Shown here piece by piece: positions 2,925 to 13,715 of a stretch of DNA of 14,182 nt. Both the position numbers and the translations under genes were made by a program. Each line of letters starts with the position of its first letter. The first letter of the stretch is position 1. The DNA is taken from positions 1 through 14,182 of the forward strand of contig JAZDCZ010000037.1 of the NCBI GenBank assembly GCA_036679605.1, in the 5' to 3' direction. This DNA comes from Gemmatimonadota bacterium (lineage in GTDB: Bacteria; Gemmatimonadota; Gemmatimonadetes; Gemmatimonadales; GWC2-71-9). Below the pieces are notes generated by a model. That model was not told where the DNA came from, did not search any database, and worked only from the letters and a program-made list of their open reading frames with translations.

Positions 2925-3443
2925 TTACTCGCCGCCGACCACTACCTTACCGCAGGCGAGCATACTGCTACCATAGTACGGGTTCTTGATATCGCCCACC
3001 GTTTGTAGCCAGCTCGCGTCGGCCATCGGACAGAAGACGACGTTAATTCCCGCTGGTGTAGACATCGTCGCCCACATCGCCAACGGGCCGGACAAGAGCT
3101 TGAACGCCTGTCGCGCTTCTTCAATGGTCTGCGCTTTCGCCAACTCAGCTGACGCCGACACGATGGCAGCTGGAAGTTTCTTGTAAGGCTCAGTAAGCTC
3201 ATCCCTGATGTTCTCCACGTCGAGCTTCGCCGCTAAGACAGCAATGCTTGTCGCGGTTTCCGCGACGCCTTCTACTGAGTCCGCGGCAAGGGCTTCCTGC
3301 GCCGCAATATAGCCAGCCAATATCGGTTGTATACCCGCGTCGAATTCATGAATACCCGAATTCGCTAGCGCCGACGTCACGAACAACGCGGCGCAGATCA
3401 ACGCCATGGCCGGTATGCCAACGGTACTACAGTTAGTTTTCAT
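2925..3443 (-). CDS. Exported DUF3347-like putative metal-binding protein (172 aa)
   Basis: Signal peptide ending in ALA, helical body Y..AQEALAAD...ARQAFKLLS, and C-terminal FCPMADASWLQ..IKNPYYGSSMLACG motif typical of DUF3347 proteins. SD GGGAGG at 3454-3449. Last gene of the efflux cluster. Confidence 0.87.
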   Translation of the reverse strand: MKTNCSTVGIPAMALICAALFVTSALANSGIHEFDAGIQPILAGYIAAQEALAADSVEGVAETATSIAVLAAKLDVENIRDELTEPYKKLPAAIVSASAELAKAQTIEEARQAFKLLSGPLAMWATMSTPAGINVVFCPMADASWLQTVGDIKNPYYGSSMLACGKVVVGGE

Positions 3444-3500: not shown

Positions 3501-6500
3501 TTAGCCCTCCCCGTTCTCGGCTTGCGCCCTCGCAAAGCGGCGTTCGAGGATGATCTCGTAGACAATCGGGATGACGATGAGTGTGAGCGCTGTCGCGCTG
3601 ATCAGTCCTCCCACCATCGGGGCAGCAATACGCTTCATGGTCTCGGCACCGGTCGAAGTCGCCCACATGATCGGCAGCAGGCCGATCAGTGTGGTGGAAA
3701 CCGTCATCAGTTTCGGTCGCACACGCTGAACCGCACCGTCGATGATGGCTAACCTCACGTCGGCGGGACGCTGCAGTTTCCCTTCGCGTTTCATACGATC
3801 GTAAGCTTCATCCAAGTACACGAGCATGACGATGCCGGTTTCGGCGGCCAAGCCGGCGAGTGCTATGAAGCCAACGTAGACGGCAACCGACAGGTTGTAA
3901 GCTTCACCGCCGGTGGCCTTGCCGAGCAAGTCAAGGAACCAGAGCAACCAAACCCCGCCGATCAATGCGAAAGGAAGGCTCAGCATCACGACCGAGGATT
4001 CGACGAAATTTCCGAAATGCATGTACAGAAGAAAAAAGATCGTGAGAATCGCCAACGGGATCAGCAATTTCAATCGCGCTGCCGCCTCCTGCATGTACTC
4101 GTACTGCCCCGACCAAACTATGCTGTAGCCGGTAGGCAGCGTCACCTCCTCAGAGACCGCCCGTTTGGCCCGCGCCACATAGGAACCTACGTCGACACCG
4201 GCCAGATCGACATAGATCCAAGCTGTGCGCCGGGCGTTCTCGCTCTTGATGACCGGAGGACCTTTGCTGATGCGAATCTCCGTGAGCTGACTGATCGGCA
4301 CCTGAGCACCACTGGGTGTGGCAATTAAAGTACGCTCGAGGGCCGAGCGGTTGTCGCGCAACTCGCGAGGATAGCGGACGTTGACCGGATAGCGCTCCAA
4401 CCCTTCTACCGTATAGGTTACGTTCATTCCGCCCATGGCCGACATGATCACGTTCTGCACGTCCTGTACGCTCAGGCCATAGCGGGCAAGTTTTTTACGG
4501 TCGATTTCAAAATCGAAATAATTCCCGCCGACTGTTTTCTCCGGGTACGCAGACAGCGTGCCCGGCAGTGTTCTGACGACGGCCGCAGTTTTTTCGGCCA
4601 GTCGACCTAGCTGTTTCAGATCGGGACCCATGATCTTGATTCCTACCGGAGTCTTGATGCCGGTGGCAAGCATGTCGATGCGTGTCTTGATGGGCATCGT
4701 CCAGGCATTGGTCAGACCGGGTAATTGCACGACATCGTTCATCCCCGGCAAACGTGTACCCGAAGCGTCTTCGTAGCCGTAGATCAGTTCCCTGGTCGTG
4801 ATCTGACGTTGGAGGGGCAGCACCTTGGCAAGTAGGTCACGCAGGGGCGCGGGCCAGTCGGCGAAAAAGCGATCAATCGAAACCTGCCTCCACTTGCCCC
4901 CGTCCTGCTCGAGCATGATCGTACTCTCGATCATGCTCAGCGGTGCAGGGTCGGTCGCGGTTTCGGCGCGGCCGATCTTGCCGAAAACATGATGCACCTC
5001 GGGGAATGAGGCGATAAGTTTATCGGTCTGCTGCAGAATCTGTTTGGCTTTGGTCACACTAATGCCCGGATCGGTAGTCGGCATATACAGCAAGTCACCT
5101 TCGTTGAGAGGCGGCATGAATTCGCTCCCGAGACCTGGAAAGAGTCCGGCAGCTCCCCTCACCACGACATCGGCACCTCGGGCCAGTCGACGAAGCAGCA
5201 ACGTGGAATCGGGACGGCTCCACCGGCTAAGCGTCGGTTCGACGCGTTCGGCAAGTGGGACCAAACCGACTAAGGGAAGTACCGTCAACACGAGCAGCAG
5301 CCCAGCGCCGACCAAAGTTGCACTGCGCCTGTTGAGCGCAGCCTCGAGAACCGGCCTGTAGATGCGGATCAGAAACCGCGAGACCGGGTTTTTTTCTTCC
5401 GGCCGGATACGGCCATGAATGAAGACATCCATCAAAACCGGGATGACCGTGATGGCTAGTAGGGAGCTGAAGGCGATGGCAAAGGTCTTCGTGTAGGCAA
5501 GAGGTCGGAAAAGACGGCCTGATTGCCCCCCCAAGGCGAAGACGGGGAGGAAGCTGACTGTGATTATCAGCAGGCTGTAGAACAAGGCCGGCCCGACCTC
5601 TCGGGCCGCCGCGATCATGATCTCTCGATGGGGTTTTCTACCGCCGTCGCGTTCGAGGTGTTTGTGAGCGTTTTCGACCATCACGACCGATGCGTCGACC
5701 ATCACGCCGATCGCAATAGCAATACCACCGAGGCTCATGATGTTGGCGTTGAGTCCGAGCCAGTTCATCATCGCGATGCTCATCAACACCGCAAGCGGAA
5801 GGGTAAACACGGCTACCAACGCCGAGCGGAAATGCAGCAGGAAGATTACGCAGACAATCGCCACGACCGCCATCTCTTCGATGAGCTTCTCACGCAGAGT
5901 TTCGACGGCACGCTCGATCAATACCGAACGATCGTAGGCTGTCTGAATGCCGACACCAGGAGGAAGACCGGCCTCGAGTTCATGCAAACGGCGCTTGGCT
6001 CGCTCTATCACCTGATACGCGTTCTCACCGAAGCGCATGATGACGATACCGCCAACCGCCTCGCCTTCTCCGTTCCAGTCCGCCAGGCCGCGGCGGATGT
6101 CGGGGCCGGTCTCAACTGAACCTATGTCGCCAAGATAGATTGGAGAGCCCGAAGGCGTGGCTCCTAGGCTGATGTCGCGGATATCGTCCAGATTGCGTAT
6201 GTAGCCGAGGCCGCGGACCATGTACTCGGTCTCGCTGGTCTCGATCACCCGCCCACCGACGTCGATATTGGAGCTCCGAATCGCGTCGCGGACACGTTCG
6301 ATTGAAATGTTGTAGGCAAGCAGACGGTTGGGATCGACGGTCACCTGATACTGGCGCACAAAGCCACCGATGCTTGCTACCTCCGAGACTCCCTGCACCG
6401 CAGCGAGTTCGTACCGTATATACCAGTCCTGCAGACTGCGAAGGTCCGAAAGGTCCTGCTGCGCCGAGACGACGGACCCGTCCCCGATCGGGCAGCTCTC

Positions 6501-7151
6501 CAAATCCGCCGGTAACGCTCTCACTTTGACTATATTGTCACGCCGCTCAGCAGGAGCGTCCTCGAGGCGCGCGTACCAGTCGATGTCGGTACGGCGCCCG
6601 CCTTGGTCGGCTGTGGCAGCACCGTCGCCGACGATATTCCGACCCCAGGTCGACAGAGCATCCCCTGGATCGTAGGCCCACAGTCCGCCGGGGTAGTCTG
6701 TGCAGTAGTTGCCTGCTGTAATCACGTACTGGTAAACCCAGCCCACACCCGTGGCATCCGGTCCTAATTGAGGACTCACAGTGCTCGGCAACTTGTTACG
6801 AACGAAATTCAGATATTCGAGCACACGTGAGCGCGCCCAATAAATGTCAGTGCCGTCCTCGAAGATAATGTAGACGAAACTGAGTCCGAAAAAGCTGTAA
6901 CCACGTACGACCTTGGCAAACGGCACCGACAACATCGCCGTGGTCAGCGGATAGGTTACCTGGTCTTCGACGACCTGGGGAGCCTGGCCGGCATACTCGG
7001 TGAAGACAATCACCTGAACATCGGATAGATCAGGGATCGCGTCCAGACGGATCGTAAACACAGAGAAGATCCCCAAGGCCGCAGCAACCGCGGCCCCGAT
7101 CAAGACTAGGCCTCGGTTGCGGATACTGTACTCGATAATGCGTGCAATCAT
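3501..7151 (-). CDS. cusA: CusA/SilA-type heavy-metal (Cu(I)/Ag(I)) efflux RND permease (~1216 aa, with insertions)
   Basis: Motifs LDAIPDLSDVQVIV, GPDATGVGWVYQY, DLRSLQDWYIRYEL, NIMSLGGIAIAIGVMVDASVVMVENAHK, LAAETG and RVRPKLMT. The Met-triad equivalents are intact (DLLYMP, APLSMIE, RIDML). Start placed at ATG 7151 (MIARIIEYSIRNR) with GGAG at 7161-7158, not 7184. Confidence 0.96.
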   Translation of the reverse strand: MIARIIEYSIRNRGLVLIGAAVAAALGIFSVFTIRLDAIPDLSDVQVIVFTEYAGQAPQVVEDQVTYPLTTAMLSVPFAKVVRGYSFFGLSFVYIIFEDGTDIYWARSRVLEYLNFVRNKLPSTVSPQLGPDATGVGWVYQYVITAGNYCTDYPGGLWAYDPGDALSTWGRNIVGDGAATADQGGRRTDIDWYARLEDAPAERRDNIVKVRALPADLESCPIGDGSVVSAQQDLSDLRSLQDWYIRYELAAVQGVSEVASIGGFVRQYQVTVDPNRLLAYNISIERVRDAIRSSNIDVGGRVIETSETEYMVRGLGYIRNLDDIRDISLGATPSGSPIYLGDIGSVETGPDIRRGLADWNGEGEAVGGIVIMRFGENAYQVIERAKRRLHELEAGLPPGVGIQTAYDRSVLIERAVETLREKLIEEMAVVAIVCVIFLLHFRSALVAVFTLPLAVLMSIAMMNWLGLNANIMSLGGIAIAIGVMVDASVVMVENAHKHLERDGGRKPHREIMIAAAREVGPALFYSLLIITVSFLPVFALGGQSGRLFRPLAYTKTFAIAFSSLLAITVIPVLMDVFIHGRIRPEEKNPVSRFLIRIYRPVLEAALNRRSATLVGAGLLLVLTVLPLVGLVPLAERVEPTLSRWSRPDSTLLLRRLARGADVVVRGAAGLFPGLGSEFMPPLNEGDLLYMPTTDPGISVTKAKQILQQTDKLIASFPEVHHVFGKIGRAETATDPAPLSMIESTIMLEQDGGKWRQVSIDRFFADWPAPLRDLLAKVLPLQRQITTRELIYGYEDASGTRLPGMNDVVQLPGLTNAWTMPIKTRIDMLATGIKTPVGIKIMGPDLKQLGRLAEKTAAVVRTLPGTLSAYPEKTVGGNYFDFEIDRKKLARYGLSVQDVQNVIMSAMGGMNVTYTVEGLERYPVNVRYPRELRDNRSALERTLIATPSGAQVPISQLTEIRISKGPPVIKSENARRTAWIYVDLAGVDVGSYVARAKRAVSEEVTLPTGYSIVWSGQYEYMQEAAARLKLLIPLAILTIFFLLYMHFGNFVESSVVMLSLPFALIGGVWLLWFLDLLGKATGGEAYNLSVAVYVGFIALAGLAAETGIVMLVYLDEAYDRMKREGKLQRPADVRLAIIDGAVQRVRPKLMTVSTTLIGLLPIMWATSTGAETMKRIAAPMVGGLISATALTLIVIPIVYEIILERRFARAQAENGEG

Positions 7152-7167: not shown

Positions 7168-9210
7168 CTATTGCTGCGGCGCAACCGCCGGTTCAGTGGG
7201 TAGGCTCACCGGATCGCCGCACTGATTCATCGAAAATCCATAGTAGGGATTGCGGGCCTGGTCGCCGGTTTGCAGCCAACTGCTGCCGGCCATCGGGCAG
7301 TAGAAAGCGCTCAGTTCCATGTCTATATTGTCCGGGCCGACGAGGGCCAGCAGTCCGGTCAGTTCTTTGGAGAGTTCGCTGAACTGCGCGCGAACCGAAT
7401 CGAGCGAACGACCGCGCATCCGAGCAGTCGTTCTGAGCGCCGCCTCTACGTGGGCGCGCGCAGATGCGTGACCCGCGTTCTCCTCGTCGGCGACAGCCAG
7501 AAATACCGCCATTGGTGCCTCCAGTTGATCAACAACCGCCGCGAGGCTGTCGCGCCCGTCTTGGGCAAGGACGTTCTGTAAAGCCAAATAGCCCGCAAAA
7601 ATAGGTTCGGCGGCTGTCGCCAGATCCGAGGCCGAACCCATACGCGGCGCATCGACAAGGACCGGCGGCACCCCCTCTTCCGATGGTACCGCCATAGCCA
7701 TCTCGGCATCGCTAGACATCTCGGCACCCCGTTGTGAGTTCTGTTCGTCTGCGCCGCCCCCTTTCTGGTCAATCATTTTCAGCACTGCCTCGCGAAGCTT
7801 AGACTCGCTGTCCAGCAGGAACTGACCGCTCGTCACAACGAGTTCGCTTTCGCTAAGCCCTTGAAGGACCTCGACCAAATCGTCACCGAGATCGACGCCG
7901 ATTTGCAGATAACGGGGTTCGAAGCGCCCTTCTCCCAGAGCAACAAAGGCGACTTGCCGTGCACCGGTATCGATGACAGCCGAGCGAGGTATCTGCAGGC
8001 CTTCGCGTCCAAGATCCGCACGGAGCTGCACGTCGGCGAACATCCCGGGCTTGAGCTCCAAGTGGGGATTGTCGAATTCAAGTCGTACTTTAACGGTTCG
8101 CGTGCCGGTATCGACGAAGGGATACACGTAGATGACTTTGCCGTGGAAGACCTTCCCCGGCAGGTAGGACAATTCCACCGTCGCGTCCTGACCGATCTTG
8201 ACGAACGAAACTTCGTTCTCATAGATATCCACGTATACCCACACACGCGACAGGTCGGCGATCGTGTAGAGCTTCATGCCTGGACGGACCTGCATCCCGT
8301 CGCGCGCCGTCTTTTCCGTGATGATCCCGGTGTAGGGACTCATCAGTTCGAGCGTCTTTGTGGGTTTTCCACGCTGTTCGAGCGCGTCGATCTGCTCATC
8401 GCTGATATCGAAGAGCTTCAATCGCAGCCTTGCAGACTCGACCAACTCTCGCATGTAACGCCCGGCCTGCGGTAAAATGTCGGAGGTGACCGTATCTCCG
8501 GCCCTAATGGCTAAGAGGTACTCCTCCTGCGATGAGTACAGTTCGGGTGAATACACGCGAAACAAGGGCATACCTTTTTCGACCTGCTGCCCTGTGTAAT
8601 CGGCGTACAGTTGTTCAATCCATCCATTGAACTTCGTCGTGACCTCACGAACGTTCCGTTCGTCGTAGTCTATCGAACCGACGGTACGCACCGTACGCGC
8701 AACCGGCTTTCGTTCGACCGAAGCCGTCCTCACTCCCATGTGCTGCACGACGACAGGGGAGATACGAATCTCGGCGCTCCCCTGCCCGCCCCTCTCGTCT
8801 TCGTAGACGGGAACCAAATCCATACCCATAGGACTCTTGCCCGGATGATCGGAAATAAAATCTGGATCCATCGGAGCACGCCAATACTTCACTTTACGTT
8901 TGGCTCCGGCTGAGTGTTTCTGCGGAGGCTGGGTCTGTACCTTGACGGGCGTCAACTCCATCTGACAGATGGGACATTCACCCGGTTCCTCGGAAAGAAC
9001 TTGTGGATGCATGCCACAGGTGTAGAGTTCTGCGCCGGCGTGTTCGTGCTTATGCGGGTCGACCGCTACCGGAGTTGCAGATTTGCTCTCCGGCCAGAAG
9101 GCCAGCAACAAAACAGCGGCGCAGCCTGCGACGATCAGGATCGTCCATATGCGAATGCTCCCTCCGGCGATGCAGCCGAAGCGATACCTGGTAGGATGGG
9201 CGTCTCTCAT
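7168..9210 (-). CDS. cusB: CusB-type RND periplasmic adaptor with N-terminal heavy-metal-binding modules and C-terminal DUF3347-like domain (680 aa)
   Basis: N-terminal TM anchor; YTCGMHPQV..PGECPICQMELTP; YWRAPMDP..PGKSPMGMDLVPVY; adaptor core (GWIEQL, YSPELYSSQEEYL, ADLSRVWV, TRTVKVR, LKPGMF, SGQFLLDSES); C-terminal YCPMAGSSWLQ..NPYYG.SM..CG. ATGA overlap with the upstream stop at 9207-9210 and GGAG at 9222-9219. Confidence 0.95.
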   Translation of the reverse strand: MRDAHPTRYRFGCIAGGSIRIWTILIVAGCAAVLLLAFWPESKSATPVAVDPHKHEHAGAELYTCGMHPQVLSEEPGECPICQMELTPVKVQTQPPQKHSAGAKRKVKYWRAPMDPDFISDHPGKSPMGMDLVPVYEDERGGQGSAEIRISPVVVQHMGVRTASVERKPVARTVRTVGSIDYDERNVREVTTKFNGWIEQLYADYTGQQVEKGMPLFRVYSPELYSSQEEYLLAIRAGDTVTSDILPQAGRYMRELVESARLRLKLFDISDEQIDALEQRGKPTKTLELMSPYTGIITEKTARDGMQVRPGMKLYTIADLSRVWVYVDIYENEVSFVKIGQDATVELSYLPGKVFHGKVIYVYPFVDTGTRTVKVRLEFDNPHLELKPGMFADVQLRADLGREGLQIPRSAVIDTGARQVAFVALGEGRFEPRYLQIGVDLGDDLVEVLQGLSESELVVTSGQFLLDSESKLREAVLKMIDQKGGGADEQNSQRGAEMSSDAEMAMAVPSEEGVPPVLVDAPRMGSASDLATAAEPIFAGYLALQNVLAQDGRDSLAAVVDQLEAPMAVFLAVADEENAGHASARAHVEAALRTTARMRGRSLDSVRAQFSELSKELTGLLALVGPDNIDMELSAFYCPMAGSSWLQTGDQARNPYYGFSMNQCGDPVSLPTEPAVAPQQ

Positions 9211-10628
9211 GACTCTATCTCCAGACCAGTCGGCGAGATTGGTAGGGAAGCACCTATCAACCTCTCCAATTCGGCCAGTTCTTGCTGGAATGAACTCAGG
9301 CTTTTCTCGTACGAGATTTCAAAGTCGAGCAGCCGTCTCCAGTTCTCCACGAAAGTCAGGAAATCCACCTGCCCGGCACGATAAGCCGATACCGTCGCAT
9401 CGAGAGTCTGGCGGGCTTCGGGAACGATTACGCTGCCGAACAGTTGCACCAGACGTTGCTCAGCGTCGACTTTCAGCATCCCTTCTTGAATCTCGAAAGC
9501 CGTAGAATCCTCGACTTCAGTCAACGCCTGACGGCTGGCTTGTAAACGGGCTTCGGCCTGTTCCCGGCCGGCGCCTAGGCGCCCAAACCATATGGGAAGC
9601 GTGATTCCCAGCGTCAGTTGGCGATTGTCTTTGCCGTTGGCCACGGGGCTGACGCCGGAACTGTCGATCTCCGTGTAGCGATAGTCGACCGTTACATCGG
9701 GCAGGTAGTCGAGTTGTGCGAGCTTGAGCGATGCGCGTGCACGCTCGATATTCTCTCTCGCCGCGGCAATGTCCGGATTCGTCTCGGAAGCGGTCGCAAT
9801 CAACTCGGCCAGCTCGACTTGGACCTTCGCCGCCTTTATCGGCGTAGTCACGGGCAAAGGACGGTTTACCGGGTATGACATGAGACGGTTCAACCGAGCC
9901 CGCGCTGTATCACGGCTCTGCCGCAGCGTAATCAGTTGGTTCTCGAGGTCGTAAAGTTCCACCTGGGCGCGAAGGACGTCTTGCTGAGGAACGCGTCCGG
10001 TTTCGTACTTGCGCGCCGCAATATTGCGAAAATCGCGAAGCAGATTGCGGCTTTTGGTCGTTAGCTCGATCGAACGATCGGCGAAGTAAAGCACATAAAA
10101 AGCGCGGCGAACCTCAGCACGCAGCCGCAGCAACTCGCCACGATAGGCTTCATAGGCCGCAGCCGCCACGTGCGACGCCGCCCGGCCACGTGTGTAGAGC
10201 TTGGCGGGAAACGGAATTTTCTGGCTGATGCCGATCGCTCCGCTTACCTGACCCGCGGCCGTTTCCGTCAAATCTCCCGAGGAAGGGACGACCGTAAGCG
10301 ATGGGTCGGGCAAACTGGTCGCCCGTGCGATCTCGTAGCCGGCCGCTTCCGCGTTGCGCAGTGCCCGCTTCAATCCAGGATTGCGCGCGAACGCCGTCGC
10401 AAGGTAATCCTCGACGGTCGCCGAGACCGGCAGGCCAGGGAGTTCCGGCTTCGCCTCCGACGCCTTCGACCTTGCGTGATCCTCGCCGATTGTGCGGGTG
10501 AGGCCGAGACTCGTGTAAGTGCCGTAGGCTTCCCTATTGCTGCCGAGGAGGGCCGGACTGCAGCTCGCCGAAGCGATCGCTACAACAACCGACGCAGCCA
10601 AATAGCCGCTTCTCCTAGTCGCCCTCAT
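9207..10628 (-). CDS. TolC-family outer-membrane efflux factor (CusC-like, probable lipoprotein, ~473 aa)
   Basis: Two OEP-like repeats (ARNPGL..LPDP..ISQKIPFPAKL..KYETG..QQDVLRAQVE; TNPDI..YLPD..ITLPIW..AYRAGQVDFLTF). Located directly before the adaptor. Best start is ATG 10628 (MRATRR..VAIASASC; basic N-region, hydrophobic core, imperfect lipobox Cys), preceded by GAGGG and overlapping the upstream gene by 14 nt. Confidence 0.93.
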   Translation of the reverse strand: MRATRRSGYLAASVVVAIASASCSPALLGSNREAYGTYTSLGLTRTIGEDHARSKASEAKPELPGLPVSATVEDYLATAFARNPGLKRALRNAEAAGYEIARATSLPDPSLTVVPSSGDLTETAAGQVSGAIGISQKIPFPAKLYTRGRAASHVAAAAYEAYRGELLRLRAEVRRAFYVLYFADRSIELTTKSRNLLRDFRNIAARKYETGRVPQQDVLRAQVELYDLENQLITLRQSRDTARARLNRLMSYPVNRPLPVTTPIKAAKVQVELAELIATASETNPDIAAARENIERARASLKLAQLDYLPDVTVDYRYTEIDSSGVSPVANGKDNRQLTLGITLPIWFGRLGAGREQAEARLQASRQALTEVEDSTAFEIQEGMLKVDAEQRLVQLFGSVIVPEARQTLDATVSAYRAGQVDFLTFVENWRRLLDFEISYEKSLSSFQQELAELERLIGASLPISPTGLEIES

Positions 10629-11067
10629 AGGCTTTACCCTCACCTGCGCGGTCGCCATTTGCGTGTAGATGTTCATCGTCATGTTCATGCCGGCCCCCCT
10701 GACCATGGTTCTCATGGCCGTGGTCTACTGTTCCGTGTCGTGCGTTACCGTTTTCCCCGTAGCCTTCAGGGGCGTAGCGGATTTCTTCAGCAACATCCCC
10801 GCCGCCGTGCAACTCGACAACGACCCGCATTCCAGGGCGTAGGTCTTCTAACGTCCCGGACTCCTCACCGAGCGAGTTATATCGTGTAGTTGGACCGATC
10901 TTGACGACAACGGTTCCGTTGGCCTCGGATTCGATCCTGATCTCCGACCTGTCGATGGCCTGGATGGTTCCATACAAGACCTCTTCTGCGCCACCATGCG
11001 CATCGGCGATTCCACAGAGGCCGAGCATGAGAACCAGCACCAAGGTCGGGGTTGATATTCGTTTCAT
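10615..11067 (-). CDS. Exported small beta-rich (OB-fold/DUF5666-like) protein with His-rich tail (150 aa)
   Basis: Start ATG 11067 with GAGGGAG upstream. Signal peptide MKRIS...GIADA|HGG. Pattern GTIQAID..IRI..VVVKIGPTTRY..GTLEDLRPGMRVVVE resembles small OB barrels. Eight His in the acidic C-terminal tail. The fold call is inference. Confidence 0.82.
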   Translation of the reverse strand: MKRISTPTLVLVLMLGLCGIADAHGGAEEVLYGTIQAIDRSEIRIESEANGTVVVKIGPTTRYNSLGEESGTLEDLRPGMRVVVELHGGGDVAEEIRYAPEGYGENGNARHGTVDHGHENHGQGGRHEHDDEHLHANGDRAGEGKAYEGD

Positions 11068-11089
11068 CGCATTGACTCCCTCTTCGCGT

Positions 11090-11698
11090 TCAATGATGAC
11101 CGTCTGCAGCCCGTGCCCGAGGCGCCCCATGCAGCACAAACTCGGCTTCAGCGGTCCGTTGGGCGCATTCACGCGGGCTCATCGGATTCCATCCTTTCAT
11201 CTGCGCTAATTCGCTTCCCGAGATGTCCGGCAGATGTCGGATGAAGTGCACCAGATTCCCGCTCTCCATATCCTCGTCCGAACGCCCGTTCCCCCAAGCC
11301 GGCATACCGTTGAGGCGTACTCCGTTCGAGATAACGTAAAACAGCTCGCCATCGGTCAGGGATTGTGTTTCGTCCCTACGCATATCGGGAGCCTTCGGGT
11401 ACAGGTTACGGCCGATCGCCGTGTCGCCACTTCCGTCGTTGGCATGGCAGACAGCGCAGTGGTCGGCGAAGTGCTCGAGTGCGCTTTCTAGAACGCCGGG
11501 CGAGACAGAAACCGGATTCGGCAACTCAGCGGCCCCGGCGGGCAGCGCCAAACGACGCGCCGCGCGGGCGAGGACTTTTTCCACAGCGCTCGGTCGCTCT
11601 CGCGCGCTGAAGCCACGCCCACGGATCGATATCCATCCGATCGCAAGAGCGACCGCTATCAAACTCAGCAGCATCGCTGTTCTTTTCTTTCCCATCAT
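11090..11698 (-). CDS. Membrane-anchored or exported monoheme c-type cytochrome (~202 aa)
   Basis: Heme motif CAVCH, followed by LYPKAPDM, TDGELFYVISNGVR, and the probable axial Met in GMPAWG. N-terminal KKR plus hydrophobic helix. Start ATG 11698/11695 with GGAG at 11711-11708 (11734 is an alternative). Confidence 0.92.
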   Translation of the reverse strand: MMGKKRTAMLLSLIAVALAIGWISIRGRGFSARERPSAVEKVLARAARRLALPAGAAELPNPVSVSPGVLESALEHFADHCAVCHANDGSGDTAIGRNLYPKAPDMRRDETQSLTDGELFYVISNGVRLNGMPAWGNGRSDEDMESGNLVHFIRHLPDISGSELAQMKGWNPMSPRECAQRTAEAEFVLHGAPRARAADGHH

Positions 11699-11909
11699 TT
11701 CGACTTGCTCCGTCGACTCGAGTCGTCTTTTCATCGTGTCCGCATCACCGCTGGCCAGTCGACGGGCCATCGCCGGAGCCACTGCAAAACTTACGCGATC
11801 CACGCCGTTGGACATGCATCTATCGGGCAATGGTCGCGAACGTCGTCGCCGTGCGCGTAAGACTCGCCCCGCGTAAGCGGAACGGGTCCAATCTATTCGG
11901 GGTGGGAAG

Positions 11910-12389
11910 TCAGATTAGAAAGGAAGCGTTCGTCAAGTATAGAGGCGGAGACAGAGCCAGGTTAGCCACAGGCTCGCGCGTAACCTTCTCGGCCCGGCAA
12001 TCTGCAAGCTCGCACTGTATCAGCGAAACCGTAACGACGCCGGTGGGAGCGTCGAGGTCGATGTTCTTGCTGACCGTGACACGGAACTTGCCGGTCAACT
12101 CGCAGCAGGTACGAGCGGGCATTTGGTCATCGGCGCTAGAAGCATCGGCATGAGTAAGCTCGACACCGTGAGAGCCGCTATGCCCAACAGCATGCGAGTC
12201 GTGAGAATCCGCTTGGGCGGAGTGTTGCATGGGACCGGCGAGCATGGGGCAGCACGCCGAGGACCCTTCGGCTCCCCCTAAGGGAGCGGCAATGCAACAG
12301 ACGGACATGTAGGGAAGCCATACGGTAGCGACTACGGCCAGTGTCAACCGTGACCGTCTCAATCTCGAAAAACGCATACGCTCAAACAT
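11910..12389 (-). CDS. Cys/His-rich exported-type hypothetical protein, candidate metal-sensing leader (HYC_CC_PP / CutF / CruR-like architecture)
   Basis: Basic plus hydrophobic N-terminus, three CC pairs plus CxxxxC, six His in a low-complexity linker, and C-terminus LSPPLYLTNASFLI. First ORF of the metal-efflux cluster. Start is 12389 or 12377. Confidence 0.72.
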   Translation of the reverse strand: MFERMRFSRLRRSRLTLAVVATVWLPYMSVCCIAAPLGGAEGSSACCPMLAGPMQHSAQADSHDSHAVGHSGSHGVELTHADASSADDQMPARTCCELTGKFRVTVSKNIDLDAPTGVVTVSLIQCELADCRAEKVTREPVANLALSPPLYLTNASFLI

Positions 12390-12412
12390 GATACCGGGAA
12401 TCGTCCCTTTCT

Positions 12413-12442
12413 ATGATGGACACTTCACAGCACGTCCGTCAA
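12413..12442 (-). promoter_or_regulatory. Candidate sigma70-type promoter for the efflux cluster
   Basis: TTGACG (12442-12437), 18-nt spacer, CATCAT (12418-12413) in the 93-bp gap before the leader ORF. Confidence 0.4.
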
Positions 12443-12482
12443 CCGCAACTTCGCCTACCCTCGCCCGGCCCCGGAAACAGGC

Positions 12483-13715
12483 CTATTCCGCCGCCGTCGG
12501 CGCCGAGCCCGGAAGAAGTTTTGGTACCAGGAAAAGGACCCAGACCAAGGTCGCGGCAAGGAAAGCGCCGGCCGATAAACCAAGCCAGAGAAAAAAGTGA
12601 GATGGGTCGAAATCGACAAGCGCGCGACCCATGATCGCCGACCCAACGAGTCCGCCGATAGCCCCTACCTGCCAAGGGCGACCCGTCATCTGTTGTTGAT
12701 GGCCGCCGTGGCCAAGCACGACTTGGGTACTTACGGACAGGGAAAGAAGAGCGAAACCTCCTATAAACGCTACATGAAGACCGGCCTTGTACTGCCCCGG
12801 AAGAGCCGCAGCCAAAAAGTATCCGAGCGGCAGCATCCAAGCCGAAATCCATAGGAGTCGACGATTCCATCCCGGTTGCGACGGTGGTTTCCACAAGCCC
12901 ACGCCTAACAGCAGTTCGGCCAGCACCACTACCGCCCGCAGGAACCTCCCCGCCGAGGGCCAGCCTCTTACCTCGATGACAAAGCCGATGACCAGCAACG
13001 CCGCCGCCACAATATGCAACACGCGCACAAGGTAGTCCCGAGGACTGGACTGACCGTCAGCCGGTGCCTCGCCACGCGTCATCAACGGTATGGCCAGCCC
13101 TCCAACACCAAGGATGAAGGCGGTGAACATGCCCTGAGTGAGCAAGACCAATCCGAGTGTATGCAGCCATAGATAGTCGGTGCCCAAAACCCCGTAGGCT
13201 CCGCCCATCAACGAGCCGCTTATCCCCATGAGCAAACCGACGGGTATCCACACGAAACTGTTGGGTGGACGGCGTCTCGAAGTCGAACTGATAAACCGGC
13301 GCACGGCGAATCCGATCAGCGTAAAAGCCAGCACCAACCAGGAGCCCTGGGCTATAAGCCAATGCTGGCTCCAGGCGGCCGCGGCCGTAACTAGCGGCGC
13401 GCCGATGGCGATGAACATCTGCCAGACCTCGGGAGGTGCGCTGCCGGTACGCCGAGGGATCATCGTGAAGAGGAAACCGGTGGCAAAACACATCAGGAAT
13501 CCCTGGATCTGCACCATCGCGTGAAATACGGGGCGGTAGTTTGCAAGTATGCCTACGGCATGTAGCAGCCAGTGACCCACCCCGGTCCAGGCCAGGGCTA
13601 CACCCAAGGGGAAGAGCAGACGGTAGGGCTCACGCCGCCATAAGGGTGCGGTCGCAAGCTCATCACTGACCTTGACAGTCCCGGGGGGAATCCATGCGGG
13701 GGTCGGATTGGACAC
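12483..13715 (-). CDS. nnrS: NnrS family integral membrane protein (~410 aa; start uncertain)
   Basis: EPYRLLFPLG, FHAMVQIQGF..ATGFLFTMIPRRTG, LHVAFIGGF and QVVLGHGG match NnrS patterns, with about 12 TM helices. In-frame GTG starts occur at 13715, 13739 and 13769, none with a clear SD. Confidence 0.82.
   Translation of the reverse strand: MSNPTPAWIPPGTVKVSDELATAPLWRREPYRLLFPLGVALAWTGVGHWLLHAVGILANYRPVFHAMVQIQGFLMCFATGFLFTMIPRRTGSAPPEVWQMFIAIGAPLVTAAAAWSQHWLIAQGSWLVLAFTLIGFAVRRFISSTSRRRPPNSFVWIPVGLLMGISGSLMGGAYGVLGTDYLWLHTLGLVLLTQGMFTAFILGVGGLAIPLMTRGEAPADGQSSPRDYLVRVLHIVAAALLVIGFVIEVRGWPSAGRFLRAVVVLAELLLGVGLWKPPSQPGWNRRLLWISAWMLPLGYFLAAALPGQYKAGLHVAFIGGFALLSLSVSTQVVLGHGGHQQQMTGRPWQVGAIGGLVGSAIMGRALVDFDPSHFFLWLGLSAGAFLAATLVWVLFLVPKLLPGSAPTAAE

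What the first reader, a model, noticed from the sequence alone, without database searches (positions are those of the whole stretch)
11910..12389. Candidate metal-sensing, ribosome-stalling leader protein heading the Cus-like cluster
Seen: the first ORF has a signal-like N-terminus, 8 Cys (VCC, ACCPM, TCC, CELADC), a His-rich spacer, and a PP motif followed by only 10 residues (PPLYLTNASFLI). No CusRS, CueR or CsoR gene lies in the window. Established: Bordetella CruR (DUF2946; CxxC plus RAPP) and Rhodobacter CutF (Cys motif plus Pro-rich C-terminus) are exported upstream ORFs that regulate the downstream copper gene post-transcriptionally. The tail here resembles my recollection of HYC_CC_PP-type proteins rather than RAPP. 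Inference: this is a divergent nascent-chain metal sensor controlling an entire RND efflux operon.
Basis: partly seen in the sequence, partly recalled or inferred. Interest (0 to 1): 0.8.

Follow-up and report, generated by a model that had tools for sequence, protein, structure and literature searches.

The report
Stalling-type leader before copper efflux pump
A small gene heading a copper-type efflux pump cluster belongs to an unnamed family that keeps a cysteine pair 53 residues before a proline pair; it likely works as a ribosome-stalling metal sensor like the known CutF and CruR leaders, with metal predicted to release the stall so that the ribosome frees the next gene's start site.

Summary
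The ORF (12389-11910, minus strand, 159 aa) is as described. It is a real gene of an unnamed family (97 clusters at 50% identity). Only four cysteines (C32, C47, C95-C96), PP and a 10-residue tail are conserved. CC-to-PP is 51-56 residues in 131 of 132 members, close to CruR (51). 26 of 37 evaluable loci lead into outer-membrane efflux genes. It fails the DUF2946, CopL and HYC_CC_PP models, though 16 of 61 members hit DUF2946 weakly. Across the family, the last codons and stop pair with the next gene's start site (pooled 35 loci, p<0.0001; one 7-locus subset negative). That helix lies beyond a PP-stalled ribosome's reach. Best reading: default arrest at PP, metal-triggered release, ribosomes melt the helix and switch the downstream genes on. 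No stalling or metal binding is shown. This copy is atypical: LSPP instead of H-x-PP, weak pairing, and a cytochrome c as first target. Such leaders before RND pumps are published (Ozturk 2023), and this scan reported CutF/CruR-like leaders on other DNA. New variant of a known kind.

The parts
12413..12442 (-). sigma70-like promoter (TTGACG-18-CATCAT) for the leader; overlaps an 8-bp imperfect dyad (12441-12414), possible regulator site
   Evidence: 9 of 12 matches; a similar TTGAC...CATCAT/TATCTT layout upstream of the orthologues in L027 and L026; function inferred
11910..12389 (-). leader ORF, 159 aa (start could be Met5 at 12377)
12291..12347 (-). hydrophobic export or anchor segment with conserved W-L-P-Y and invariant C32
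   Evidence: cleavage not testable here
12249..12251 (-). C47, conserved in 97% of 61 members
12150..12224 (-). His-rich spacer of variable length (C32 to C95 is 42-70 residues in the family)
12102..12107 (-). invariant CC (in TCCELTGK), predicted metal site
11943..11948 (-). invariant PP, predicted arrest core (LSPP here; H-x-PP in 111 of 132 family members)
11913..11942 (-). 10-codon tail (x-Y-L-x4-F/L-L-I) beyond the end of the DUF2946 model
11903..11920 (-). C/U-rich strand over the last codons and stop; here predicted to pair with codons 2-6 of the cytochrome c gene (11694-11680), in most relatives with the SD/AUG
11707..11767 (-). local stem (11767-11757 with 11718-11707) that holds the GGAG Shine-Dalgarno of the cytochrome c gene
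   Evidence: prediction
11090..11698 (-). membrane-anchored c-type cytochrome, first downstream gene
   Evidence: PF13442; 54-58% identical to proteins in four related metal clusters
10615..11067 (-). small exported His-rich protein, weak DUF5666
   Evidence: below cut-off
9207..10715 (-). outer-membrane efflux protein (CusC-like; true start probably further in)
   Evidence: PF02321
7168..9210 (-). CusB-like adaptor with HMBD and DUF3347 domains
3501..7151 (-). CusA-type RND pump; the three binding-site Met of E. coli CusA align to Met (residue numbers recalled)
   Evidence: TIGR00914; 1084 bits to CusA versus 453 to ZneA
2925..3443 (-). DUF3347 periplasmic protein, last gene of the cluster

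Best explanation
The gene encodes a membrane-targeted Cys/His leader whose CC lies 53 residues before a PP and which heads a cytochrome c-CusCBA cluster; it likely stalls its ribosome at PP by default, Cu(I)/Ag(I) binding to the cysteines would release the stall, and ribosomes running through the 10-codon tail are predicted to melt an RNA helix over the next gene's start and so switch the cluster on. Shown: the anatomy, the fixed spacing, the neighbourhood and family-wide complementarity between the stop region and the next start site. Inferred: arrest, metal binding, direction of the switch and spread to the pump genes. In short, CruR-type sensing (metal relieves arrest) joined to a CutF-type output (a freed start site); the tail would invert the logic so that an efflux system is induced.
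For: (1) CC to PP is 52.9 +/- 0.9 in 61 aligned members, while C32 to CC varies 42-70; it is 51-56 in 131 of 132. CruR is C90 to P141 = 51 and its spacing is functionally constrained; CutF is 45. (2) Core is H-[GASHDY]-PP in 111 of 132 (HGPP 43, HAPP 32) and RGPP in two distant members. HGPP and RxPP are reported stallers; CruR arrests with its two Pro in the P and A sites. (3) Three distant members with longer tails keep CC to PP at 52-55 while PP to end grows to 15, 15 and 24 (P0142, P0143; L058 counted), so the ruler is anchored on PP rather than on the stop. (4) Own-locus tail:start pairing beats cross-locus pairing: -3.8 kcal/mol in 16 discovery loci, -5.2 in 12 held-out loci, -3.3 pooled over 35, each with 0 of 20,000 permutations as good. 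(5) The paired strand peaks at -13..+8 around the stop, whereas a ribosome covers 11 nt past its P-site codon, i.e. to about -28 if stalled at PP. Opening energy falls 14.0 to 9.1 kcal/mol when the ribosome is moved from PP to the stop (21 of 28 loci drop >=2) but not from -60 to PP (4 of 28). (6) The model has no globular fold (pTM 0.24). (7) 26 of 37 evaluable loci lead into OEP genes.
Against: No arrest, metal binding or expression data. This copy has LSPP (1 of 132), at the position where Arg is irreplaceable in ApcA/ApdA/ApdP. It shows no own-locus pairing excess (-0.3, -1.7, +0.7), 0 tail:start pairs when 100 nt of upstream RNA are included, and its SD stays in a local stem whatever the ribosome position (11.0 to 11.3 to 9.4 kcal/mol). 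A third set of 7 loci gave no excess (p=0.60); 2 of 7 control windows and 1 of 5 had p<0.05. The leader's own start lacks a clear SD, so ribosome traffic may be too low to hold a helix open. Some members lack PP (9 of 141 at that position; L061 and L083) yet L061 keeps the pairing. 3 loci show no metal gene within 6-10 kb. A CsoR gene sits upstream in G326.
Confidence: 0.42

Rival explanations
1. CutF polarity: metal binding induces a pause at or near the stop codon, with PP-x-Y-L sitting 9-12 residues up the exit tunnel; the paused ribosome sits on the anti-SD strand and frees the next start site.
For: Y151, L152 and the last three residues are conserved as amino acids, and PP to end is 11 in 61 of 61. 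A ribosome at the stop is the position that opens the helix. A long pause would offset weak leader initiation. CutF stalls upon Cu binding and has two extra upstream Cys, as here.
Against: Members with 15- and 24-residue tails keep CC to PP, not CC to end. The core matches known elongation stallers acting at PP.
Confidence: 0.2
2. No sensing in this copy: either the family is only a translational coupler or anchored metal-binding peptide, or this member has decayed, and metal control is transcriptional (CsoR/MerR-type factor acting at the promoter dyad).
For: LSPP instead of H-x-PP; weak pairing here; a dyad over the promoter; CsoR next to the G326 orthologue; frameshifted or PP-less relatives exist.
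Against: A free periplasmic binder would not need a fixed CC-PP distance across low-identity linker sequence. The ORF is intact and under purifying selection. The G326 orthologue also lacks the His (QSPP) yet pairs strongly with its own first gene. No CsoR family match in G000 (the bin may not hold this contig's whole source genome).
Confidence: 0.23
3. Rho-dependent attenuation as in CruR or TnaC: the C-rich patch at the stop is a rut site and ribosome position decides whether transcription continues through the 211-nt gap.
For: C:G is 21:7 in the 60 nt around the stop. Gaps of 76-385 nt resemble CruR's 162 nt more than the under-100-nt majority of CutF-like genes. It would act on the whole operon at once.
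Against: Own-locus complementarity to the next start site is not needed for a rut site. The gap is predicted to be structured. CruR logic would repress an efflux pump in copper. No intrinsic terminator was called in the gap.
Confidence: 0.12

Closest known systems
CruR (Bp2923) of Bordetella pertussis, DUF2946/PF11162 (PMC9426467, passages; arrest shown in PMC12992588, passages)
   Same: Small exported, poorly folded uORF; Cys pair a fixed 51-53 residues before PP; long gap to the next gene; heads a metal-handling operon.
   Different: CC instead of CXXC; H-x-PP (LSPP here) instead of RAPP; 10 residues after PP instead of 3; target is efflux, not TonB uptake; predicted output is start-site release, not Rho termination; no DUF2946 hit for this protein.
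CutF of Rhodobacter capsulatus and the rule-based CutF-like class (PMC9973294 / bioRxiv 2022.11.11.516240, passages and one section; bioRxiv 2025.02.05.636593, parts 1 and 5 of 6 plus passages; PMC8456105, passages)
   Same: Two upstream Cys plus a Cys pair; PP within 15 residues of the end; RNA helix over the next gene's SD; OEP/CusC is the commonest neighbour of the class.
   Different: CutF has CxxxC and PPP 2 residues from the end with a short local stem-loop; here the helix is long-range (76-385 nt) and starts 4-5 codons beyond a PP-stalled ribosome, which predicts the opposite stall polarity; 159 aa exceeds the class's 150-aa filter.
CopL family (NCBIfam NF033807) and Cupriavidus CusD/SilD/CzcI (named as CutF-like in PMC9973294)
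   Same: Cis-acting or predicted leaders in front of copper oxidase or RND efflux genes; 11 of 61 family members hit NF033807 weakly (best E 0.002).
   Different: This protein has no hit; mechanism of the RND-associated ones is not established in the passages read.
HYC_CC_PP family (NCBIfam NF047658; ESM Atlas neighbours DUF8199 and DUF6769, Bacteroidota)
   Same: CC and PP motifs by name; Atlas feature score 0.93-0.94 to those clusters (a lead only).
   Different: 0 of 61 members match NF047658 at E<=1; no HYC motif; different phyla.
RAPP/RGPP arrest peptides ApcA, ApdA, ApdP and SecM (PMC12992588 section 7; PMC7897499 passages)
   Same: x-[GAS]-PP core near the C-terminus of a small exported uORF; SD-hiding structure downstream.
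   Different: They need Arg at PP-2 and sense pulling by the translocon; arrest opens the SD, whereas here release is predicted to.

Membership tests
DUF2946 / CruR | Pfam PF11162 score above gathering cut-off (23.7 bits) | tested here: not met
   No hit for the protein; 16 of 61 members hit weakly, best 20.7 bits.
DUF2946 / CruR | CXXC metal motif | tested here: not met
   Invariant CC instead; CXXC in that zone in 4 of 132.
DUF2946 / CruR | C-terminal RAPP | tested here: not met
   LSPP here; R[AG]PP in 0 of 132 core members, H-x-PP in 111; RGPP in distant L056 and L059.
DUF2946 / CruR | Fixed spacing between Cys motif and PP | tested here: met
   51-56 in 131 of 132 versus 51 in CruR.
DUF2946 / CruR | Metal-dependent ribosome arrest acting in cis | not testable with these tools
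   Needs toeprinting and reporters.
CutF-like (Ozturk 2023 rules) | PP within the last 15 residues | tested here: met
   PP at -12/-11.
CutF-like (Ozturk 2023 rules) | Shorter than 150 aa | tested here: not met
   159 aa (155 from Met5); 77 of 132 members are under 150. A search filter rather than a biological limit.
CutF-like (Ozturk 2023 rules) | Cleavable Sec signal peptide | tested here: inconclusive
   Basic n-region and hydrophobic helix (46 of 61 members reach KD>=1.8 in the first 40 aa); no Tat consensus (0 of 61) or lipobox (1 of 61); no signal-peptide predictor available.
CutF-like (Ozturk 2023 rules) | Same-strand downstream gene within 1,000 nt, linked to metal homeostasis | tested here: met
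   211 nt to cytochrome c, then CusCBA.
CutF-like (Ozturk 2023 rules) | RNA structure shielding the next gene's SD, opened by the leader ribosome | tested here: inconclusive
   Family level supported (negative subset in 108); weak in this copy.
HYC_CC_PP (NF047658) | NCBIfam score above 28 bits | tested here: not met
   No hit for the protein, 61 aligned members or 17 distant members; model is in the library.
CopL (NF033807) | NCBIfam model hit | tested here: not met
   None for the protein; 11 of 61 members weak, best E 0.002.

The most novel reading that the evidence does not exclude
The 10-codon tail is a logic inverter: an H-x-PP arrest leader that senses metal like CruR (release) is wired, through a long-range helix between its stop region and the next start site, to turn genes ON. 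The same module has been re-paired to different first genes (OEP, cytochrome c, ECF sigma factor, nucleotidyltransferase), so it would be a portable release-to-activate metal switch, explaining how CutF-like leaders with long gaps induce efflux pumps.
Probability: 0.33. Interest if true: 0.7.

Novelty: new variant of a known kind. Interest (0 to 1): 0.5.

Why it matters
Two such leaders are worked out, with opposite polarity: CruR (metal relieves the stall, genes off) and CutF (metal induces the stall, gene on). The largest context class, leaders before RND efflux pumps, has no mechanism in the papers found, and Ozturk 2023 notes that stall-driven melting should be limited to short gaps. This family gives a concrete, testable solution: a fixed CC-PP ruler, a natural H-x-PP core, and a long-range helix placed out of reach of the PP-stalled ribosome. 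It predicts a third wiring, release-to-activate. The window's own copy is a poor test case; relatives with clean helices (L029, L033, L063, L027) are better.

Tried and rejected
Pfam and NCBIfam give no hit for the protein. A protein search of 60 listed relatives of G000 found one spurious match; a 300-genome phylum sample gave one true member, with the other 9 matches a different Cys/His leader type or chance. Back-translated search of genome contigs with A1 found no confirmed locus; A2 was too variable for that tool. 2 of 9 DNA-pattern matches were out of frame and dropped. AlphaFold2 gave no fold and Foldseek no PDB match. No Rfam match in 10500-12700. Tat and lipoprotein signals were rejected. 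The plus-strand ORF 11830-12153 over the leader was not supported as a gene (not searched further). A first partition-function shuffle test timed out and was replaced by MFE shuffles of non-overlapping dinucleotides (>=8 pairs in 9 of 15 loci versus 6.4% of shuffles). Whole-region folding of the gap is no more stable than shuffles (z=0.51). No CusR-type regulator over the TIGR01387 cut-off in 5 genomes. No expression data could be examined, so transcription and metal induction are open. Literature searches found no paper on this family or on a release-to-activate CutF-like leader; most subscription journals are not in the library, and the supplements of PMC9973294 (cluster logos, lists B and D) were listed but not read, so one of its 29 clusters may overlap this family.

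Full report
OBSERVATION. Downstream on the same strand lie a c-type cytochrome (start 11698, gap 211 nt), a small His-rich exported protein (weak DUF5666), an outer-membrane efflux protein, a CusB-like adaptor, an RND pump and a DUF3347 protein. The pump is CusA-type: 1084 bits to E. coli CusA against 453 to ZneA, with Met at the three aligned binding-site positions (the CusA residue roles are recalled). nnrS ends 93 nt upstream on the same strand, with a sigma70-like promoter in between that has counterparts before the orthologues in L026 and L027.

IT IS A REAL GENE OF AN UNNAMED FAMILY. The protein has no Pfam or NCBIfam hit. A four-sequence profile found 97 representatives at E<=0.001. A 61-sequence alignment then found 72 proteins at the 90% level, none with a Pfam domain or a name beyond 'hypothetical protein'. 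Invariant columns are C32, C95, C96, P148 and P149; P26, C47, H70, G100, K101 and L152 are at 90% or more. C126 and C131 are not conserved. Of 141 proteins in hand, 132 have PP at -12/-11; 9 do not. CC to PP is 51-56 in 131 of those 132, although the linker is barely conserved; the C32-to-CC stretch varies from 42 to 70. Profile searches favour similar spacing, but that bias applies to both stretches. AlphaFold2 gives an N-terminal helix, two short helices (95-99, 150-158) and no globular fold (pTM 0.24). Titled records that carry the family are labelled Deltaproteobacteria, Myxococcales, Candidatus Binatia, Longimicrobiales (one 2.4-kb contig) and uncultured bacterium.

NEIGHBOURHOOD. 37 distinct loci had enough downstream DNA. 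An OEP gene comes first in 19 and later in the same-strand run in 7. Three more have other metal-linked genes (multicopper oxidase, PF13801, YHS). One has an ECF sigma factor first and then the contig ends; four had only 1.5 kb and no named first gene; three showed no metal gene in 6-10 kb. Left out: six loci whose contig ends within about 310 nt of the stop (L004, L007-L010, L031), duplicates, and non-members (L013, L030, L032, L055). So the leader usually, but not always, heads efflux genes, and the first gene varies. L026 has the window's order (leader, cytochrome c, CusCBA; 54-78% identity). G326 has the window's flanks (nnrS, MAPEG, FadE at 77-86%) with the cytochrome c and DUF5666 genes moved behind CusA.

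RELATION TO KNOWN LEADERS. 16 of 61 members hit DUF2946 below its cut-off and 11 hit CopL weakly; none hits HYC_CC_PP. In several hits the last DUF2946 position falls on the family's PP, so the 10-residue tail is an extension beyond that model. The ESM Atlas lists unnamed clusters at 0.96 and DUF6769, DUF8199 and DUF2946 clusters at 0.93-0.94 (a lead). In CruR, CXXC is at 90-93 and RAPP at 139-142, spacing is conserved and matters, and Cu relieves arrest (PMC9426467, passages); the arrest maps to the two Pro (PMC12992588, passages). In CutF, C69xxxC73 and P114-P116 are needed and Cu induces stalling that opens an SD stem-loop. Ozturk 2023 lists OEP as the commonest neighbour of 5,334 CutF-like genes, mostly with gaps under 100 nt. 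The family core is H-x-PP in 111 of 132; HGPP is a reported staller whose strength depends on upstream sequence (PMC7897499, passages). This copy's LSPP is unique among the 132, and Arg at that position is irreplaceable in the RAPP peptides tested (PMC12992588 section 7).

A LONG-RANGE HELIX OVER THE NEXT START SITE. Reading the loci, I saw that the last codons, stop and next ten bases are complementary to the SD/AUG of the following gene. Start codons were picked by SD and protein features, not by pairing. Own-locus duplex energy was compared with cross-locus pairs after fitting row, column and GC-by-GC terms. Discovery set, 16 loci (windows chosen; L004 and L009 dropped as near-duplicates, L015 for an unclear start): excess -3.8 kcal/mol, 13 of 16 below -2, 0 of 20,000 permutations as good; nine shifted windows p 0.07-0.94. 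Held-out set, 12 loci: -5.2, 9 of 12, same p; seven controls p 0.03-0.75. Third set, 7 loci: +0.4, p 0.60. Pooled 35: -3.3, 22 of 35. Loci are related, so the p values overstate independence. In folds of the whole gap, 22 of 28 loci have 6 or more expected tail:start pairs; the 5' strand peaks from -13 to +8 around the stop and the partner at the SD. Helices stay folded 11 nt past the P-site codon (PMC8861025, passages), so a ribosome with P148 in the P site covers to about -28 and misses the helix. Computed opening energy of the start region is 14.2, 14.0 and 9.1 kcal/mol with the free RNA beginning at -60, -24 and +6 (21 of 28 loci drop by 2 or more in the last step, 4 of 28 in the first).

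THE WINDOW'S COPY IS A WEAK EXAMPLE. It shows no own-locus excess. With upstream RNA removed, as under a PP-stalled ribosome, bases -10..+7 pair with codons 2-6 of the cytochrome c gene at P 0.4-0.9, but this is lost when 100 nt or more of upstream RNA are included, and the SD stays in a local stem throughout. Opening energy changes little (11.0, 11.3, 9.4). Its closest syntenic relative L026 has a pairing excess but no drop in opening energy.

MECHANISM. Committed reading (0.42): the nascent chain is targeted to the membrane; the ribosome pauses at PP; 53 residues place CC outside the tunnel, about at or beyond the translocon (inference from tunnel length, recalled); Cu(I)/Ag(I) binding releases the pause as in CruR; ribosomes cross the tail and stop, melt the helix, and the first gene is translated; the pump genes, several of which overlap their neighbours, follow by coupling or relief of polarity. 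The direction is inferred from geometry plus the need to induce efflux. Members with 15- and 24-residue tails keep CC to PP at 52-55 (three sequences only), which favours PP as the arrest point. Rivals: a metal-induced pause at the stop (0.20); no sensing in this copy, with transcriptional control (0.23; CsoR gene and palindrome upstream in G326); Rho attenuation (0.12).

CAVEAT ON THE GENOME. G000 is 6.7 Mb against 3.7 Mb for its listed genus-mate. Its RpoB is 87% identical to that genome and 51-52% to G325-G327, yet the window's FadE is 85, 79 and 65% identical to G326, G325 and G327 and has no orthologue in G001 or G036. The contig is probably mis-binned or transferred, so genome-wide absence of regulators says little.

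VERDICT. The gene works, most likely, like a CutF/CruR leader but is not a member of DUF2946, CopL or HYC_CC_PP by their models. A leader before an RND pump is a published context. The specific addition is the H-x-PP plus 10-codon architecture with a long-range anti-start helix out of reach of the PP stall, which predicts release-to-activate wiring. Earlier notes of this scan report CutF/CruR-like leaders on other DNA (33 findings), three of the eight shown with stop:start pairing; no look-alike of this sequence family was indexed. New variant of a known kind; interest 0.5.

Noticed in passing
window (contig C300) versus G000 markers: Window genes are 65-86% identical to G325-G327 proteins while G000's RpoB is 51-52% identical to theirs; the bin is likely chimeric or the contig transferred.
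   Followed up: partly
L015:1498-1938 (G000:C208): Second leader of the same build (CC to PP 54, PP plus 15 residues) heading another OEP-adaptor-RND operon.
   Followed up: partly
L085:3257-3772 (G000:C377): Cys-rich leader-like ORF ending PP plus 9 residues, 108 nt before a globin-like gene (PF00042 weak, E 0.016) rather than a metal pump; its tail can pair with the globin SD.
   Followed up: partly
L011:904-1536 and L050/L067: In two loci the leader's first downstream gene is an ECF sigma factor; in L067 it is followed by cytochrome c, Rieske, cytochrome b, a porin-like gene and an OEP-adaptor-CusA set, suggesting a leader-gated sigma cascade.
   Followed up: partly
L061/L068: Member with RP in place of PP keeps the CC spacing and one of the strongest tail:SD helices, before a nucleotidyltransferase and a multicopper oxidase.
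   Followed up: partly
L003:4455-5909, L006, L067:3576-5111, L077: A roughly 480-aa protein with no Pfam hit recurs as first gene after the leader or just before the OEP gene.
   Followed up: no
window 12441-12414; L026 and L027 upstream regions: Imperfect dyad overlapping the -35 and -10 hexamers; L026 has a 20-nt spacer with a 6-bp dyad, a MerR-type layout (recalled); L027 has a CsoR-family gene with an operator-like palindrome just upstream.
   Followed up: partly
window 3501-7151: The CusA-type pump carries inserts relative to E. coli CusA (about residues 157-239, 637-684 and 768-814), the first containing two Cys.
   Followed up: no
L017, L019, L020, L023: G000's listed relatives carry a different Cys/His leader type ending PFA-x-[AG]PP, before a TonB-receptor-like or other exported gene; three of them hit DUF2946 weakly.
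   Followed up: no
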